IMG/VR virus record: IMGVR_UViG_3300004481_001935
Reading direction: 5' to 3' (one strand)
Source: a virus
DNA length: 16,021 nt
In this document: positions 11,357 through 13,693 of the stretch, in pieces
Layout: every line of letters begins with the position of its first letter
Numbering within the stretch: position 1 is the stretch's first letter
The notes under the pieces: generated by a model
The model's input: the letters and a program-made list of their open reading frames with translations, nothing else
Database searches by the model: none
Told to the model about the DNA's origin: nothing
Translations under genes and position numbers: made by a program

Positions 11357-11484
11357 GGAACCAAATGCTAGAAAGGACTACATTACCTGTGAGCCATCCG
11401 TTCGAGTCGGATTTCCGCCACTTTGGCGGAATAGCTCAGTTGGCAGAGCAATAGGGCAACGTCTTTTCGACTTTTGTTGGTTCC
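11357..11484 (+). ncRNA. Scaffold RNA unit 3 with permuted class-I tRNA-like cargo
   Basis: P1 is GGAACCAA/TTGGTTCC. P2 is GAAAGGAC/GTCTTTTC. Cargo order: CCTGT, GAGCC, T arm ATCCG-TTCGAGT-CGGAT, TTCCGCC-ACTTT-GGCGGAA (7-bp closed acceptor), TA, GCTC-AGTTGGCA-GAGC, A, ATAGG (pairs with CCTGT). Confidence 0.8.
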
Positions 11485-11491
11485 AATTTTC

Positions 11492-11770
11492 ATGGCGTAC
11501 GAAATAAACACTTGTCCGAGATGCGAAGAGGAGAAGAAAGAGTATATTCTACGCTATGAAGGAACAAGCTCCACACTAATGAGTGGTGATCGTTTTGCCA
11601 AGAACGGCGTATGGCATACTCATGACCCAAATAGGCATTGTTCAACGTACAGGTGTAGTAATGGTCATGTGATAGAAATTACCTACTATCGCATTTGCCC
11701 GGTTTGCAGATTCAATTCCGACAAACCGCAATCGCAAATGAAGATCTTTGACAACCGGACAGATAAATAA
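11492..11770 (+). CDS. Small zinc-ribbon protein (92 aa) embedded in the ncRNA array
   Basis: ATG 11492 lies just after unit 3; the tracked 11474 start overlaps the RNA. CPRC ... CxxxxxH ... CPVC motifs are present. No obvious RBS. AT-richer than its flanks. Confidence 0.5.
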   Translation: MAYEINTCPRCEEEKKEYILRYEGTSSTLMSGDRFAKNGVWHTHDPNRHCSTYRCSNGHVIEITYYRICPVCRFNSDKPQSQMKIFDNRTDK

Positions 11771-11776
11771 AAAATT

Positions 11777-11930
11777 GGGCAAATGCTAGAGGGACTACAT
11801 ATGAAAATCCTTCATGCGAAAGCATTGCGCAGGTTCGAATCCTGCCATGGTCTAGTACAGAGCATGTGGCCGAGCGGCTAAAGGCAAGGGACCCCGAAAG
11901 GGGATGCCGTCTCTCAAATACTTGTTGCCC
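11777..11930 (+). ncRNA. Scaffold RNA unit 4 with permuted class-II (Ser/Leu/Tyr-like) tRNA-like cargo
   Basis: P1 is GGGCAA/TTGCCC. P2 is GAGGGAC/GTCTCTC (7 bp). Cargo order: TCCTT, variable-arm hairpin ATGC-GAAA-GCAT, T arm GCAGG-TTCGAAT-CCTGC, acceptor hairpin CATGGTC-TAGTACA-GAGCATG, D arm TGGCCGAGCGGCTAAAGGC, AGGGA (pairs with TCCTT), then CCCC-GAAA-GGGG. Confidence 0.75.
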
Positions 11931-11946
11931 ATATAAAGTCAAGATA

Positions 11947-12071
11947 GGCAGAATGCTGTGGGGACTACATCCAAGTGCATAACGCGAGGTGCAAATCCTT
12001 GCCGCCGACGTTTGATGTCGGCGTCGTCTAGTAGTAGGACATGCATACTGTCTCCGCGATCCTTGTCTGCT
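11947..12071 (+). ncRNA. Scaffold RNA unit 5 with permuted tRNA-like cargo (Glu-like D arm)
   Basis: P1 is GCAGA/TCTGC. P2 is GTGGGGAC/GTCTCCGC. Cargo order: GTGCA, TAAC, T arm CGAGG-TGCAAAT-CCTTG, CGCCGAC-GTTTGAT-GTCGGCG (7 bp), TCGTCTAGTAGTAGGACA, TGCAT (pairs with GTGCA). Confidence 0.75.
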
Positions 12072-12080
12072 TTATAAGTT

Positions 12081-12210
12081 TGGCCAAATGCTCGATGGGA
12101 TTACATCCATTCCGAAGGACGTGATGATGGTTCGAATCCATCTCTCCGCATGCGGAGATCGTCTAATTGGCTAGGACCCGACAACTAATCTCGTCAATTC
12201 TTGTTGGCCA
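12081..12210 (+). ncRNA. Scaffold RNA unit 6 with permuted tRNA-like cargo
   Basis: P1 is TGGCCAA/TTGGCCA. P2 is GATGGGAT/ATCTCGTC; the C-to-T change in GGGAC is compensated by G-to-A in GTCTC. T arm is GATGG-TTCGAAT-CCATC. The acceptor is the palindrome TCTCCG-CATG-CGGAGA. D arm is TCGTCTAATTGGCTAGGAC. I could not find an anticodon-stem equivalent. Confidence 0.7.
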
Positions 12211-12218
12211 ATAGTTTG

Positions 12219-12420
12219 TGGCAAATGCAGCTGGGAGTACATTCCTATAACGACCCTAAGGTAGCTTAGCTACGCGAGTGTCAGCGAAGCCGCGAGTGGC
12301 CGAAGGCAGTGGTGGTAGACACGAAGCACAAAAATCCACTAGGCCAGTCGAGCAGAGTCTCTCCTCCCGGTCAGACTCCAGCGACGGTCGTAATCGATGC
12401 TCAGCTAATACTTGTTGCCA
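12219..12420 (+). ncRNA. Scaffold RNA unit 7 with ~150-nt non-tRNA structured cargo
   Basis: P1 is TGGCAA/TTGCCA. P2 is GCTGGG(AG)/(TG)CTCAGC, 6 bp with the conserved G-T. AATGC, TACAT and AATACTTG motifs are present. Cargo has hairpins GTAGC-TTA-GCTAC, GTGTC...GACAC and GTCG-AGCA-GAGTCT...AGACTC-CAG-CGAC, plus three CGAAG-type loops. There is no T-loop. Confidence 0.6.
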
Positions 12421-12428
12421 CGTAAATT

Positions 12429-12557
12429 GGGGCCAAACGGCTACAGATCTGAAGCTACAGGTTCAACTCCTGTCGACCCGCTACTGCGGTGAAAATCCCA
12501 GAGTGGGTTGTAGTTCAATCGGTAGAATGTTAGATCTCAGGCCCTTTCGTTGGCCCC
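12429..12557 (+). ncRNA. Scaffold RNA unit 8 (degenerate scaffold) with permuted tRNA-like cargo
   Basis: P1 is GGGGCCAA/TTGGCCCC (8 bp). P2 is reduced to GGC/GCC, followed by TACAG. AGATCTGA/TTAGATCT is the anticodon-stem equivalent. T arm is ACAGG-TTCAACT-CCTGT. The acceptor CGACCCG...TGGGTTG closes a 21-nt loop. D arm is GTTC-AATCGGTA-GAAT. Confidence 0.6.
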
Positions 12558-12565
12558 TTTGTTTA

Positions 12566-13016
12566 GCTGCAAATGCAGGCGGGATTACATCACACGAGAG
12601 TGTCCAGCGCTAGAAGGTTCGATTACGTATTACGCACGTATGAGGATCGACTAGCTTTGCGGGTTGAACTCCCGCCGTGACATGTACGCAATGACAGCTG
12701 GAAGGTTGGCTTAGAGGCAGCCAGGGCAAATGCCCGGTCGTTTGACAGACGATCCCTATAATGAATGGAGCGAACCGTCGTGGCCCAGCCCGATTAACTC
12801 CTCAGAGCGTACTGAGGATTGGGGCTCAAAGCATACGTTGTTGGGTACAGTTCGGTAATGCGCGAGCGCCTACGAAAACCCATCGGGGATGTGGCTAACG
12901 ATCTTCGGGTCGGAACCCTCCTTTGGCGTAGTAGCACACCAGCCGAGTTTGCATGTTGCGTATCCAAGGGTCTAAGGCAGCTGGGTTTAACTAATCTTGT
13001 CGATTCTTGTTGCAGC
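12566..13016 (+). ncRNA. Scaffold RNA unit 9 with ~420-nt structured cargo, including a D-arm-less tRNA-like element
   Basis: P1 is GCTGCAA/TTGCAGC (7 bp). P2 is GGCGGGAT/ATCTTGTC (8 bp, 3 G-T). AATGC, TACAT and GATTCTTG motifs are present. Cargo includes T arm GCGGG-TTGAACT-CCCGC (12659-12675), helix GCTAG...CTAGC, the UUCG-capped hairpin CGATC-TTCG-GGTCG (12899-12912), CCTCAG-AGCGTA-CTGAGG and more. Confidence 0.55.
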
Positions 13017-13024
13017 TAATTTTT

Positions 13025-13099
13025 GGGCTGACAAATAATTAATAATCGGTTGGCAATACCGGAAGAGAAAGCTGCGTTGTGTTGTTTGTCAGCCCTTTT
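13025..13099 (+). terminator. 11-bp-stem hairpin plus TTTT; possible terminator or separate RNA element after unit 9
   Basis: GGGCTGACAAA (13025-13035) pairs 11/11 with TTTGTCAGCCC (13085-13095), followed by TTTT. The 49-nt loop contains a TCGGT-TGGCAAT-ACCGG hairpin. Confidence 0.35.
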
Positions 13100-13560
13100 A
13101 GCATCGATGGCGGTCCGCGCAAACTGGCTCTGCTGCCATGTAATAGAGGGTGTTGCCGCCTGGCCAAACCCTACTGCTCTCGATTAGCCCCGCCGAAAGG
13201 CCATGTTCGAGAGGTCAACAGAGGGACAGCACCTATTCCACTCGCGCAAATCCGGGTAGCGGTGGTTGTGGTTAATGAAACCAGCTTTAAATGGCAACGC
13301 CGGTAGCCCTTCCCGGTGACCGGCAATTTTTGAAATGGCAAGGTGGCGTAGTAAATAGAGCAGTAATAGTGCTGCTCGCCCCTATCACGTACACCCATCT
13401 TGCCATAAACATTTTTGGCAAAACGGTTAAAATTACAATCGCTTCTCCGCTGCGCATCCCCGTTTTGCCAATAGTCGTTCGGGAGATATCTGTTCAACTC
13501 AGGTACCCACAATATCGTGGGTTCGTCCAACGATAGGATACCCGACCTTTTGAAAGCAAT

Positions 13561-13693
13561 GGGCGAATGCAGTAGGGACTACATCCACTTATAATAGCGC
13601 GGTCGCTGGTTCGAGTCCAGCTCTTCAGGTTTTATCCTGGAGATAGCTCAGCTGGTAGAGCGCGTAAACGTTGTCTCTGCAATTTTGTCGCCC
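13561..13693 (+). ncRNA. Scaffold RNA unit 10 with permuted class-I tRNA-like cargo
   Basis: P1 is GGGCGA/TCGCCC. P2 is GTAGGGAC/GTCTCTGC. T arm is GCTGG-TTCGAGT-CCAGC. The acceptor hairpin is TCTTCAGG-TTTTAT-CCTGGAGA (8 bp). D arm is TA GCTC-AGCTGGTA-GAGC. The 3' loop is AATTTTG. Confidence 0.8.

What the first reader, a model, noticed from the sequence alone, without database searches (positions are those of the whole stretch)
11357..13693. Circularly permuted tRNA-like domains, mimicking different tRNA classes, displayed on the scaffold apex
Seen: in units 3, 4, 5, 6, 8 and 10 the order is T arm, then acceptor 3' strand, then a short loop, then acceptor 5' strand, then D arm. The two acceptor strands within each unit are complementary: TTCCGCC/GGCGGAA, CGCCGAC/GTCGGCG, TCTTCAGG/CCTGGAGA, CGACCCG/TGGGTTG, and CATGGTC/GAGCATG (6 of 7 pairs, one G:G mismatch).

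In units 3, 4, 5 and 8 a 5-8-bp anticodon-stem equivalent joins the segments before the T arm and after the D arm (CCTGT/ATAGG, TCCTT/AGGGA, GTGCA/TGCAT, AGATCTGA/TTAGATCT). It stacks toward P2 and replaces the anticodon loop with the scaffold.

The cargoes differ in identity features. Units 3 and 10 have class-I D arms (TAGCTCAGTTGGCAGAGC, TAGCTCAGCTGGTAGAGC). Unit 4 has a class-II D loop plus a variable-arm hairpin. Units 5 and 6 have Glu-like TCGTCTA..GGAC D arms.

Established: bacterial YrlA-type Y RNAs contain exactly this kind of closed-acceptor tRNA-like module.

Inference: this is a panel of tRNA mimics without anticodons. They might tether tRNA-modifying or repair enzymes or exoribonucleases, or act as decoys for host tRNA-targeting defence nucleases.
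Basis: partly seen in the sequence, partly recalled or inferred. Interest (0 to 1): 0.85.

Follow-up and report, generated by a model that had tools for sequence, protein, structure and literature searches.

The report
Phage Y-RNA array of tRNA mimics
Directly downstream of a phage gene for the RNA-binding ring protein Ro60 lies a tightly packed array of at least twelve "Y RNA" genes, six of which carry a tRNA-shaped module with a closed acceptor end and no anticodon loop; this kind of RNA (YrlA) is already known, but an array this large and varied has not, as far as I could find, been described.

Summary

Evidence for a tRNA fold:
- Put back into normal tRNA order, all six are called tRNAs by ARAGORN, against 0 of 400 shuffles.
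- Across 45 homologous units from 20 loci, every helix covaries.
- The tertiary Levitt pair (positions 15:48) also covaries.

These are divergent YrlA-type Y RNAs:
- The Rfam YrlA model matches at E down to 1e-11, but below its curated cut-off.
- The units sit on the same strand directly after a Ro60 (TROVE + vWA) gene.
- The gene and array lie in an RNA-repair gene island and follow a perfect sigma-70 consensus promoter.

The architecture is published (Chen 2014; Wang 2018), including in phages. So the core finding is a new member of a known kind.

What goes beyond the literature:
- The array has 12 or more scaffold units, where relatives have 3-4.
- D-arm and variable-arm types differ between units and are conserved in orthologues.
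- Cargo appears to have been exchanged between scaffolds.
- Two long-cargo units are 95-98% conserved. One contains a mimic of the 23S rRNA GTPase-associated centre.

The function (Ro60 tether or decoy) is untested.

The parts
9571..11172 (+). Ro60/Rsr orthologue (533 aa), the presumed protein partner of the array
   Evidence: Pfam vWA_Ro60 1.6e-18 and TROVE 2.4e-7; phrog_850 2.2e-42. About 52% identical to many bacterial '60 kDa SS-A/Ro ribonucleoprotein' entries.
11153..11180 (+). Consensus sigma-70 promoter (TTGACA, 16 nt, TATAAT; 12 of 12), ending 19 nt before U1
   Evidence: A consensus match only; no expression data.
11199..11271 (+). U1: short YrlB-like Y RNA (stem-loop only, GGGCGAATG motif)
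   Evidence: Rfam YrlB 34 bits, E 1.7e-4; R1 38.6 bits.
11282..11354 (+). U2: short YrlB-like Y RNA
   Evidence: Rfam YrlB 24.6 bits, E 0.066; R1 38.7 bits.
11358..11486 (+). U3: YrlA-type Y RNA with a class I tRNA-like module (11386-11455)
   Evidence: Rfam YrlA 47 bits, E 9.6e-9; R1 122 bits. The minimum-energy fold is the permuted cloverleaf. ARAGORN calls the de-permuted form a tRNA. The orthologue in L001 has a compensatory acceptor change.
11492..11770 (+). Small Cys-rich (zinc-ribbon-like) protein gene that interrupts the array
   Evidence: The protein sequence is conserved in L003; the gene is absent from L001. No Pfam or PHROG match.
11776..11934 (+). U4: YrlA-type Y RNA with a class II (Ser/Leu-type) tRNA-like module (11808-11891) and a variable arm
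   Evidence: Rfam YrlA 28 bits; R1 52 bits. ARAGORN drawing shows a 3-bp D stem, an 11-nt D loop and a 4-bp variable arm. Promoter-like site at 11748-11775.
11946..12075 (+). U5: YrlA-type Y RNA with a Glu/Gln-type D arm and an unusual T loop, UGCAAAU (G at position 55), with no GG in the D loop
   Evidence: Rfam YrlA 34 bits; R1 97 bits. D-arm comparison. The same deviations are kept in L001 12247-12382.
12080..12212 (+). U6: YrlA-type Y RNA with a Glu-type D arm and a 6-7-bp acceptor
   Evidence: R1 102 bits. In L001 the same scaffold carries a cargo like that of U10.
12217..12422 (+). U7: Y scaffold with a ~150-nt cargo that is not tRNA-like
   Evidence: Scaffold stems found by my scan. 97.6% identical to L001, against 62-70% for the protein genes. 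No Rfam match. 19 of 21 match to 23S 1914-1934.
12430..12559 (+). U8: YrlA-type unit with a divergent stem (CAAACGG motif), an 8-bp AC-stem equivalent and a 23-nt acceptor loop
   Evidence: Rfam YrlA 28.5 bits; R1 56 bits; ARAGORN on the de-permuted form.
12563..13020 (+). U9: Y scaffold with a ~400-nt cargo that includes a mimic of 23S rRNA helices 42-44 (12680-12956)
   Evidence: Scaffold. The orthologue L001 13016-13266 matches Rfam bacterial LSU rRNA model positions 1075-1162 at E 6.6e-7. nhmmer gives E 1.1e-5. 18 of 19 match to the E. coli H43 loop. 94.8% identical to L001.
13021..13555 (+). Structured spacer absent from L001: hairpins at 13025-13095, 13335-13406 and 13415-13471, plus a tRNA-like module without a scaffold at 13479-13545
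   Evidence: Fold z-score -3.6. ARAGORN calls the de-permuted 13479-13545 module a tRNA.
13560..13697 (+). U10: YrlA-type Y RNA with a class I module and an 8-bp acceptor; the best match to Rfam YrlA
   Evidence: Rfam YrlA 57.3 bits, E 1e-11; R1 112 bits.
9356..9425 (+). Additional permuted tRNA-like module upstream of Ro60; its acceptor 3' strand is followed by an encoded GCCA
   Evidence: R1 42 bits over model positions 31-106. The orthologue is L003 424-500. ARAGORN on the de-permuted form. Sequence read.
14598..14768 (+). U11: further scaffold-type unit (11-bp terminal stem, CTTGTTGCC 3' motif) with non-tRNA cargo
   Evidence: Sequence and fold only; the R1 model did not detect it.
14778..14870 (+). 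U12: short Y-RNA unit immediately 5' of tRNA-Asp
   Evidence: R1 31.6 bits, E 3e-4; scaffold scan.

Best explanation
The region is a tandem array of phage-encoded Y RNA genes of the bacterial YrlA/YrlB kind. It is transcribed from a strong promoter at the end of the phage's own Ro60 (Rsr) gene.

In each unit the 5' and 3' ends pair into a conserved bulged stem. The stem has a 5' ..GNC(G/A)AAUGC..GGGACUACAU and a 3' ..GUCUC..CUUGU(Y)GNC. By homology this stem is the Ro60-binding site.

In units 3, 4, 5, 6, 8 and 10 the distal module folds into a tRNA-like L shape. The scaffold takes the place of the anticodon loop, and a short loop closes the acceptor stem.

Shown here: the sequence anatomy, the fold (covariation in every helix and in the Levitt tertiary pair), the family relationship, and the linkage to Ro60.

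Inferred by analogy with Deinococcus Yrn1 and Salmonella/Mycobacterium YrlA: the stem loads onto the Ro60 ring, and the tRNA-like module is the effector-binding end. It would be read through its T/D-loop elbow by tRNA-handling proteins. [quoted passage not shown] They could also be the island's own Thg1-like 3'-5' polymerase and RlaP nucleotidyltransferase. On this view the array tethers or gates Ro60 in a phage RNA repair or quality-control system.

I put about 0.9 on the identity (Ro60-associated YrlA-type Y RNAs). I put about 0.45 on tethering or gating, rather than decoying, as the main function.
For: - Family: Rfam YrlA matches five units over the full model and YrlB matches two.
- Ro60 gene: it lies directly upstream on the same strand.
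- Published hallmarks: the GNCGAAN0-1G-like motif and the YUAY element are present. They are conserved across 45 units: AAUGC in 43-44 of 45, UACA in 41-44 of 45.
- Secondary structure: 94.3% of cells are paired in 45 units from 20 loci, against 40-53% when partners are slid. All 7 acceptor pairs, 4 of 5 T pairs and 3 of 4 D pairs change on both sides.
- tRNA tertiary nucleotides: U54 45/45, A58 45/45, C56 43/45, U8 42/45, A14 43/45, G19 41/45.
- Levitt pair 15:48: G:C 18, A:U 14, mixed 3; Fisher p = 7e-7.
- De-permuted modules are called tRNAs by ARAGORN; 0 of 400 shuffles are.
- A syntenic homologous array lies in L001.
- Ro60 genes lie next to multi-unit arrays in at least 12 IMG/VR contigs.
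- A 12-of-12 consensus promoter lies at 11153-11180.
- The neighbouring genes are RNA-repair types: Thg1, RlaP, cREC_REC, YspA-SLOG.
- Literature: YrlA is bound by Rsr and modified by TruB and DusA. M. smegmatis YrlA, which has a 7-bp acceptor, is cut by RNase P and receives CCA. The crystal structure is tRNA-like (PMC4201824; 10.1101/312249).
Against: - No unit reaches the Rfam gathering score of 69 bits (best 57.3), and the default Rfam scan reports none.
- Most units have A where the published motif has G (GNCAAAUG), and U8 lacks the GGGACUACAU element.
- Binding to Ro60, expression and processing are all unobserved.
- The function of the tRNA-like domain is unknown even for the studied YrlAs.
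- Two tRNA-like modules (9356-9425 and 13479-13545) lack a recognisable Ro-type stem. Ro60 binding therefore cannot explain every module.
Confidence: 0.85

Rival explanations
1. Decoy panel. The tRNA-like modules act mainly as competitive substrates or sponges for host factors that attack or modify tRNAs through the elbow, acceptor stem or variable arm. Examples are acceptor-end nucleases, nucleotidyltransferase or acetyltransferase toxins, and tRNA-sensing defence systems. Ro60 would serve only to stabilise the RNAs.
For: - Several D-arm and variable-arm types are kept in parallel and conserved in orthologues.
- The array has a strong consensus promoter, which suggests high copy number.
- It lies in a phage island of RNA-repair genes that are normally read as counter-defence (PMC7824862).
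- One long-cargo unit mimics a ribosomal RNA centre, which fits a logic of imitating host translation RNAs.
Against: - There are no anticodon loops, so the best-known anticodon nucleases cannot be decoyed.
- There is no free CCA end in units 3-10.
- Acceptor sequences drift freely between orthologues, so no specific tRNA is copied.
- No defence or toxin gene was examined, and there are no experimental data.
Confidence: 0.25
2. Processed split tRNA-like RNAs. RNase P and 3' trimming open the acceptor loop, as happens in M. smegmatis YrlA. This would give two-piece Y RNAs with a free, CCA-tailed acceptor end that could be aminoacylated or used by Thg1, RlaP or the CCA-adding enzyme.
For: - Acceptor stems are 7-8 bp in U3, U4, U5, U8 and U10, the length that made M. 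smegmatis YrlA an RNase P substrate.
- NCCA begins the acceptor loop in 5 of 45 family members, where about 0.7 would be expected by chance.
- NCCA also begins the acceptor loop of the window's upstream module, TCACCAC-GCCA.
- One L001 unit has a whole tRNA nested in its acceptor loop.
- A Thg1-like 5'-end repair enzyme is encoded nearby.
Against: - None of units 3-10 encodes CCA.
- Acceptor loops are as short as 2-5 nt in U3 and U6.
- Most studied YrlAs are not cleaved.
- This refines the main explanation rather than replacing it.
Confidence: 0.2
3. True permuted or split tRNA genes, whose halves are processed and joined into ordinary decoding tRNAs.
For: The order of elements (3' half before 5' half) is that of permuted tRNA genes, and ARAGORN accepts the de-permuted constructs.
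Against: - No unit has an anticodon loop. The AC-stem equivalent runs into the conserved Y stem, and in U6 and U10 it is absent or only 3-4 bp.
- The ARAGORN constructs needed a synthetic anticodon loop.
- The flanks match the Y-RNA models at both ends.
- The phage has ordinary tRNA genes elsewhere in the window.
Confidence: 0.02
4. An artefact of a decayed tRNA gene array: the T arm of one tRNA followed by the D arm of the next. This is the known false positive for YrlA models.
For: My model does give partial hits (model positions about 33-99) at real tandem-tRNA junctions in other loci, for example L001 16281-16335.
Against: - In the window the two acceptor strands that flank the short loop are complementary to each other and covary.
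- The matches cover the full model, including both scaffold strands.
- ARAGORN and Rfam find no tRNA within 11199-13697.
Confidence: 0.01

Closest known systems
YrlA RNAs of Salmonella Typhimurium and Mycobacterium smegmatis (Rfam RF02553; Chen et al. 2014, PMC4201824; Wang et al. 2018, 10.1101/312249, PDB 6CU1)
   Same: - A terminal stem with a GNCGAA-type motif.
- A YUAY element.
- The order V region, T arm, closed acceptor stem-loop, D arm, with an AC-stem equivalent joined to the stem.
- tRNA tertiary nucleotides and Levitt-pair covariation.
- A position next to rsr on the same strand.
- 7-bp acceptors, as in M. smegmatis.
   Different: - Scores fall below the Rfam cut-off (28-57 bits against 69).
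- The motif is mostly GNCAAAUG.
- There are six tRNA-like units within an array of at least 12 units, rather than one or two genes.
- The D-arm and variable-arm types diverge between units, including a class II form and a variant with G at position 55.
- The setting is a phage island without RtcB in the 16 kb seen.
Phage Y RNAs: mycobacteriophage, CcrColossus and Bacillus phage G YrlAs (Chen 2014), and Yrl1/Yrl2 of Thermus phage phiLo (PMC12135203)
   Same: A phage-encoded Ro60 with adjacent Y-RNA-like genes. The phiLo RNAs bind the phage Ro60 and assemble with host PNPase.
   Different: - Published cases report one to a few RNAs per phage.
- phiLo Yrl1 and Yrl2 were identified by a stem-bulge-stem structure and a conserved CGAA motif; the paper does not use the term 'tRNA-like'.
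- Here there are at least 12 units with mixed cargo.
- No blastn match in 50,697 phage records.
- The closest cultured Ro60 is that of Myxococcus phage Mx1, at 49% identity.
Deinococcus radiodurans Yrn1 and the RYPER complex
   Same: A modular Y RNA: one end binds Rsr, and the other tethers an effector (PNPase). It has a T-arm-like hairpin.
   Different: In Yrn1 the T and D arms are oriented differently relative to the RNA ends, the stem-loop between them may correspond to the anticodon arm rather than the acceptor stem, and no full D arm is evident. Its partner is known, whereas no partner is known for the modules here.
Circularly permuted tRNA genes of the red alga Cyanidioschyzon merolae (from my own knowledge, not checked here)
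   Same: The 3' half of the tRNA is encoded before the 5' half, and the acceptor strands are joined by a short linker.
   Different: Those genes have an anticodon loop and mature into decoding tRNAs through a circular intermediate. The modules here have a Y stem instead of an anticodon loop.
[quoted passage not shown]
   Same: A tRNA-like non-coding RNA in RtcB/Ro60-type RNA-repair neighbourhoods. It has been proposed to be interchangeable with YrlA.
   Different: A b7a-tRNA is a normally ordered tRNA look-alike, neither permuted nor on a Y stem. A possible example here is the tRNA-Met-like gene at 4098-4172, just after the vault-protein homologue. I did not test this.

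Membership tests
YrlA (Rfam RF02553) | Score at or above the curated Rfam gathering cut-off of 69 bits | tested here: not met
   Best scores are 57.3 bits (U10), 47 (U3), 34.2 (U5), 28.5 (U8) and 28 (U4). All are full-length matches with E from 1e-11 to 3e-3. None appears in gathering mode.
YrlA (Chen et al. 2014 criteria) | Encoded within 4 kb of a Ro60/TROVE gene, on the same strand | tested here: met
   The Ro60 orthologue is at 9571-11172 (+) and units U1-U10 at 11199-13697 (+). The criterion is quoted from PMC4201824.
YrlA (Chen et al. 2014 criteria) | GNCGAAN0-1G motif near the 5' end | tested here: inconclusive
   Exact in U1 and U10 (GGCGAATG). U2-U7 and U9 have A or other bases at the C/G positions (for example GGCAAATG, ACCAAATG, GGAGAATG), and U8 has CCAAACGG. 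Across 45 relatives the G at this position is present in 32 of 45, and AAUGC in 43-44 of 45.
YrlA (Chen et al. 2014 criteria) | Conserved T and D stem-loops with an acceptor-like stem-loop between them, plus the YUAY element | tested here: met
   T stem 99.6% paired, D stem 98.9%, acceptor 97.7% with 7 of 7 pairs covarying; C/U-U-A-C conserved in 41-44 of 45.
YrlA (Chen et al. 2014; Wang et al. 2018) | tRNA-type tertiary contacts, including Levitt-pair covariation (G15:C48 or A15:U48) | tested here: met
   G:C 18, A:U 14, mixed 3; Fisher p = 7e-7. In the window, U3 and U10 have G:C and U6 and U8 have A:U. U5 departs from the pattern (G:G, G at position 55, no G18-G19).
YrlA / Y RNA | Bound by the Ro60 orthologue in vivo | not testable with these tools
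   Needs immunoprecipitation or a gel-shift assay with the phage Ro60.
YrlA | Substrate of tRNA enzymes (TruB pseudouridine 55, DusA dihydrouridine, RNase P and CCA addition when the acceptor is 7 bp) | not testable with these tools
   Only the prerequisites can be seen. UUC is present in the T loop of all units except U5, and the acceptors of U3, U4, U5, U8 and U10 are 7-8 bp.
YrlB (Rfam RF02565) | Score at or above the gathering cut-off of 97 bits | tested here: not met
   U1 scores 34 bits and U2 24.6 bits. They resemble YrlB only as short Y stems without a tRNA-like module.
Canonical tRNA (Rfam RF00005 / ARAGORN) | Contiguous cloverleaf with an anticodon loop and the acceptor formed by the two ends | tested here: not met
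   No tRNA is found within 11199-13697 by ARAGORN or by Rfam in gathering mode. The modules are recognised only after rearrangement and addition of a synthetic anticodon loop.
Permuted tRNA genes | Both halves together encode a complete tRNA, including the anticodon loop | tested here: not met
   The AC-stem equivalents continue into the Y stem, and no 7-nt anticodon loop exists.
23S rRNA GTPase-associated centre (helices 42-44), considered for the U9 cargo | H42 closing stem, H43 hairpin with the UAGAAGC loop, and H44 hairpin with the GUAAUA loop | tested here: inconclusive
   The orthologue L001 13016-13266 matches the bacterial LSU model at positions 1075-1162 (34 bits, E 6.6e-7, below the 50-bit cut-off) with a 171-nt insertion. 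The window copy has the same three elements by sequence (12680-12956). It has an extra 31-nt insertion and two changes at conserved bases, and Rfam does not report it.

The most novel reading that the evidence does not exclude
The Y-RNA stem in this group of phages may be a general display scaffold, on which interchangeable cargo modules that imitate host translation RNAs are presented to the phage Ro60 particle. The cargo includes several tRNA types, a mimic of the ribosomal GTPase-associated centre (U9) and perhaps other rRNA pieces (U7). The particle might also involve the vault-protein homologue encoded 7 kb upstream. On this reading the array is a diversified panel of baits or adaptors, rather than redundant copies of one Y RNA.

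Three observations fit this reading:
- The long cargo is 95-98% conserved, against 62-70% for the protein genes.
- One scaffold carries a different cargo in the related phage.
- The array has 12 or more units, where relatives have 3-4.
Probability: 0.3. Interest if true: 0.8.

Novelty: new member of a known kind. Interest (0 to 1): 0.5.

Why it matters
What the tRNA-like end of bacterial Y RNAs binds is still unknown, more than ten years after its discovery. A phage that keeps six or more differently built tRNA-like modules side by side is a natural comparative experiment. The modules share one type of scaffold, sit next to one Ro60 gene, and lie among tRNA-end repair enzymes (Thg1-like, RlaP).

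Partners that bind every module would be reading the conserved T/D elbow. Partners that bind only some would be reading the class-specific features.

The related arrays found here in many large uncultivated phages show that the expansion of Y RNAs is a recurrent phage strategy. Standard annotation misses it, because every unit falls below the Rfam cut-off.

If the rRNA-like cargo is real, it would extend Y-RNA mimicry from tRNA to the ribosome.

Tried and rejected
- Default Rfam and ARAGORN scans report nothing in the array. The family match shows only in E-value mode.
- blastn of 9500-14000 against 50,697 phage records gave no match.
- A back-translated search for Ro60 relatives in IMG/VR found none. 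A DNA motif of the scaffold did find relatives, along with many chance single hits.
- In Myxococcus phage Mx1, the closest cultured Ro60 at 49% identity, my model's only hit lay about 8 kb upstream of the Ro60 gene, at a junction of two tRNA genes.
- Exact-pattern scans for more copies of the U7 and U9 cargo found nothing in IMG/VR, JGI metagenomes or GTDB genomes. Covariation in those cargoes could therefore not be tested.
- U7 has no Rfam match even when searched alone. Its resemblance to 23S helices 69-70 rests on a 19 of 21 match (BLAST E 0.15, nhmmer E 0.009 against E. coli rRNA only). I treat this as unproven. Other 9-12-nt matches to rRNA are at chance level.
- ORFs that overlap the array (12278-12613, 13079-13306, 13291-13536) have no Pfam match and were rejected as genes.
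- Partial hits of my model at tandem tRNA junctions in other loci are false positives.
- Papers I could not obtain: Sim and Wolin 2018, Sim et al. 2020, Burroughs and Aravind 2016, and the supplementary tables of Chen 2014. The largest number of Y RNAs previously reported per phage is therefore unverified.
- The tandem-tRNA artefact and the true permuted tRNA gene readings were both considered and rejected (see the rival explanations).

Full report
**1. What is in the sequence**

Between 11199 and 13697 on the + strand there is a run of repeated units, separated by only 3-12 nt. Each unit starts with a motif of the form GNC(G/A)AATGC...GGGACTACAT. Each ends with ...GTCTC...CTTGT(Y)GNC, and its two ends are complementary. 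A scan for this end-pairing plus motif found eight such units on the + strand and none on the - strand.

Units 1 and 2 are short stem-loops without this interior. Units 7 (206 nt) and 9 (458 nt) carry long interiors that are not tRNA-like.

**2. Is it more than chance, and does it fold like tRNA?**

- ARAGORN and Rfam at curated thresholds find no tRNA in the array.
- I rearranged each module into normal tRNA order and inserted a synthetic anticodon loop. ARAGORN then called all six tRNAs at its default threshold. It also called two further modules, at 9356-9425 and 13479-13545. None of 400 shuffles was called.
- In an alignment of 13 units from the window and three related contigs, 90.8% of the proposed pairs are standard pairs. 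The figure is 38-47% when the partners are slid by 1-3 columns. All seven acceptor pairs change on both sides.
- A covariance model built from that alignment found 45 strong matches in 20 loci. On these, 94.3% of cells are paired: acceptor 97.7%, T stem 99.6%, D stem 98.9%. That alignment is fitted to the model, so the percentages lean towards it. The number of different pair types per position (up to six) does not depend on that.
- The universal tRNA nucleotides are conserved: U54 and A58 in 45 of 45, C56 in 43, U8 in 42, A14 in 43, G19 in 41.
- The tertiary Levitt pair covaries: G15:C48 in 18 units, A15:U48 in 14, mixed in 3; Fisher p = 7e-7, not corrected for relatedness.

These results show a tRNA-like L-shaped fold as well as computation can.

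**3. What it is**

The ORF immediately upstream (9571-11172, + strand) is a Ro60/Rsr orthologue. It has Pfam vWA_Ro60 and TROVE domains and matches phrog_850. It is about 52% identical to many bacterial Ro proteins.

In E-value mode the Rfam YrlA model matches units 10, 3, 5, 8 and 4 over its full length (57.3 to 28 bits; E 1e-11 to 3e-3). YrlB matches units 1 and 2. All fall below the gathering scores, which is why the default scan is silent.

The published hallmarks of YrlA are met, with one partial exception:
- a position within 4 kb of rsr on the same strand;
- a YUAY element;
- conserved T and D arms with an acceptor-like stem-loop between them;
- Levitt-pair covariation.

The exception is the 5' motif GNCGAAN0-1G. 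It is exact only in units 1 and 10 and is a one-base variant in most others.

Wang et al. (10.1101/312249) solved the Salmonella YrlA domain. [quoted passage not shown] (PMC4201824) reported YrlAs in 254 bacteria and 22 phages, sometimes several per locus.

**4. Surroundings**

- A perfect sigma-70 consensus promoter (TTGACA, 16 nt, TATAAT) lies at 11153-11180, just before unit 1. A 10-of-12 site lies just before unit 4.
- Upstream genes encode a major-vault-protein homologue, a Thg1-like tRNA 5'-end polymerase, an RlaP nucleotidyltransferase, a cyclic-phosphate receiver domain, a YspA-type SLOG protein and DUF7873. These are the RNA-repair gene types discussed for jumbo phages (PMC7824862).
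- Ordinary tRNA genes (Met, Asp, Val) lie in the window.
- Contig L001 (Ro60 59% identical) has the same gene order and a homologous array.
- At least twelve IMG/VR contigs, mostly 50-390 kb, carry a Ro60 gene next to multi-unit arrays. These arrays are often interleaved with real tRNA genes.
- A bacterial relative and two phage-like relatives have 3-4 units.
- The window has 12 scaffolded units: U1-U10, plus 14598-14768 and 14778-14870. It also has two tRNA-like modules without a scaffold.

**5. 'Different tRNA classes'**

- Unit 4 has a 3-bp D stem, an 11-nt D loop and a 4-bp variable arm, the class II pattern. Its L001 orthologue keeps these features although its acceptor sequence is entirely different.
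- The D arms of units 5 and 6 are closest to Gln/Glu tRNAs among 258 phage tRNAs. Those of units 3 and 10 are generic class I.
- Unit 5 has G instead of U at position 55 and no GG in its D loop, and both features are kept in L001.
- Acceptor stems drift freely between orthologues.

What is conserved, then, is the elbow and the class-level architecture, not an aminoacylation identity.

L001 unit 12396-12533 has the scaffold of unit 6 (87-88% identity) but a cargo like that of unit 10 (89%, against 75% to the cargo of unit 6). This suggests cargo has been exchanged between scaffolds.

**6. How it most likely works**

Shown: the anatomy, the fold, the family relationship and the linkage to Ro60.

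Inferred from the studied systems: each unit is released from a polycistronic transcript, and its terminal stem binds the phage Ro60 ring. The tRNA-like module is the effector end, read through its T/D elbow by tRNA-handling proteins. Candidates include the neighbouring Thg1-like and RlaP enzymes and host enzymes. On this model the array tethers or gates Ro60 within an RNA repair or quality-control system.

Rivals:
- A decoy role is possible, but it cannot involve anticodon nucleases, because there are no anticodon loops.
- Opening of the acceptor loop by RNase P is plausible for some family members. Acceptors are 7-8 bp. NCCA begins the loop in 5 of 45 units and in the upstream module at 9382-9395. 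None of units 3-10 encodes CCA.
- True permuted tRNA genes and tandem-tRNA artefacts are excluded (see the rival explanations).

**7. Beyond the finding**

Units 7 and 9 are 97.6% and 94.8% identical between the window and L001, whereas the protein genes are 62-70% identical at the DNA level.

The unit 9 orthologue matches the Rfam bacterial large-subunit rRNA model at helices 42-44, the GTPase-associated centre (E 6.6e-7), with a 171-nt insertion between H43 and H44. nhmmer against E. coli 23S agrees, at E 1.1e-5.

The window copy has:
- the H42 strands at 12680-12701 and 12938-12956;
- the H43 hairpin at 12705-12723 (18 of 19 identical to E. coli);
- the H44 hairpin within 12925-12947.

It also has an extra 31-nt insertion.

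Unit 7 shows only a 19 of 21 match to 23S 1914-1934 and no Rfam match. I regard this as unproven. No further homologues of either cargo could be found.

**8. Verdict**

The tRNA-like modules are new, divergent members of the known YrlA kind.

I found no paper that describes the array's size, its parallel module types, the apparent cargo exchange or the rRNA-like cargo. However, I could not read the key reviews or supplementary tables. Function remains untested.

Noticed in passing
window 12680-12956 (within unit 9, 12563-13020); L001 13016-13266: The long cargo of unit 9 contains a look-alike of 23S rRNA helices 42-44, the L11/thiostrepton-binding GTPase-associated centre, with a ~170-nt insertion between H43 and H44. 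Rfam LSU E 6.6e-7 in L001; the H43 loop is 18 of 19 identical to E. coli. At 458 nt this unit is about twice the 220-nt upper length quoted for Y RNAs.
   Followed up: partly
window 12217-12422 (unit 7): A Y scaffold with a ~150-nt cargo of unknown kind. It is 97.6% identical to L001, although the neighbouring genes are only 62-70% identical. It has a 19 of 21 match to 23S 1914-1934 (helices 69-70), but no Rfam match and no further homologues.
   Followed up: partly
window 9207-9545, module at 9356-9425: A separate structured RNA lies upstream of the Ro60 gene. It has a promoter-like site (9207-9236) and a hairpin followed by a T run (9477-9540). It contains another permuted tRNA-like module whose acceptor 3' strand is followed by an encoded GCCA, as if it were made to expose a CCA end. 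It is conserved in L003 (424-500).
   Followed up: partly
window 13021-13555: A 535-nt structured stretch (fold z-score -3.6) absent from L001. It holds three long hairpins (13025-13095, 13335-13406, 13415-13471) and a tRNA-like module without a Ro-type stem (13479-13545).
   Followed up: partly
window 14598-14768 and 14778-14870: Two more Y-scaffold units lie beyond the finding's end, just before tRNA-Asp (14873) and tRNA-Val (14953). The array therefore continues past an intervening protein gene.
   Followed up: partly
window 11492-11770 and 13671-13931: Two small Cys-rich (CxxC...CxxC) ORFs are embedded in the array. The first is conserved as a protein in L003 and absent from L001. Neither has a Pfam or PHROG match. 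They might be RNA-binding partners or mobile insertions.
   Followed up: partly
window 1412-4009 and 4098-4172: A major-vault-protein homologue (MVP shoulder and Vault_3 domains) is followed directly by a tRNA-Met-like gene with an odd T loop (AUCGUAG). The same pairing of a vault-protein gene and a tRNA-Met gene occurs in L001. Vault particles and Ro share the TROVE RNA-binding module, so a phage island with both is suggestive. The tRNA may correspond to the 'band-7-associated tRNA' of RNA-repair operons.
   Followed up: no
window 4872-9026: An RNA-repair gene set lies upstream of Ro60: cREC_REC receiver (4872-5315), Thg1-like (5281-6027), YspA-SLOG (5940-6389), RlaP nucleotidyltransferase (6373-7581) and DUF7873 (8268-9026). 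No RNA ligase was seen in the window.
   Followed up: partly
L001 12396-12533 compared with window 12080-12212 and 13560-13697: The scaffold of unit 6 carries, in the related phage, a cargo like that of unit 10. This is a sign of cargo exchange between scaffolds.
   Followed up: yes
L001 15636-15844: A full-length YrlA-type match (89 bits) whose acceptor loop contains a whole tRNA gene (15709-15778). Processing of that tRNA would split the Y RNA at its acceptor end.
   Followed up: no
IMG/VR loci L045, L047, L054, L059/L063, L072, L091, L092, L095, L028, L036: Many large uncultivated phage contigs carry a Ro60 gene next to arrays of several YrlA/YrlB-type units, often interleaved with ordinary tRNA genes. 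All the YrlA matches listed for the six loci scanned score below the Rfam cut-off, so the units go unannotated.
   Followed up: partly
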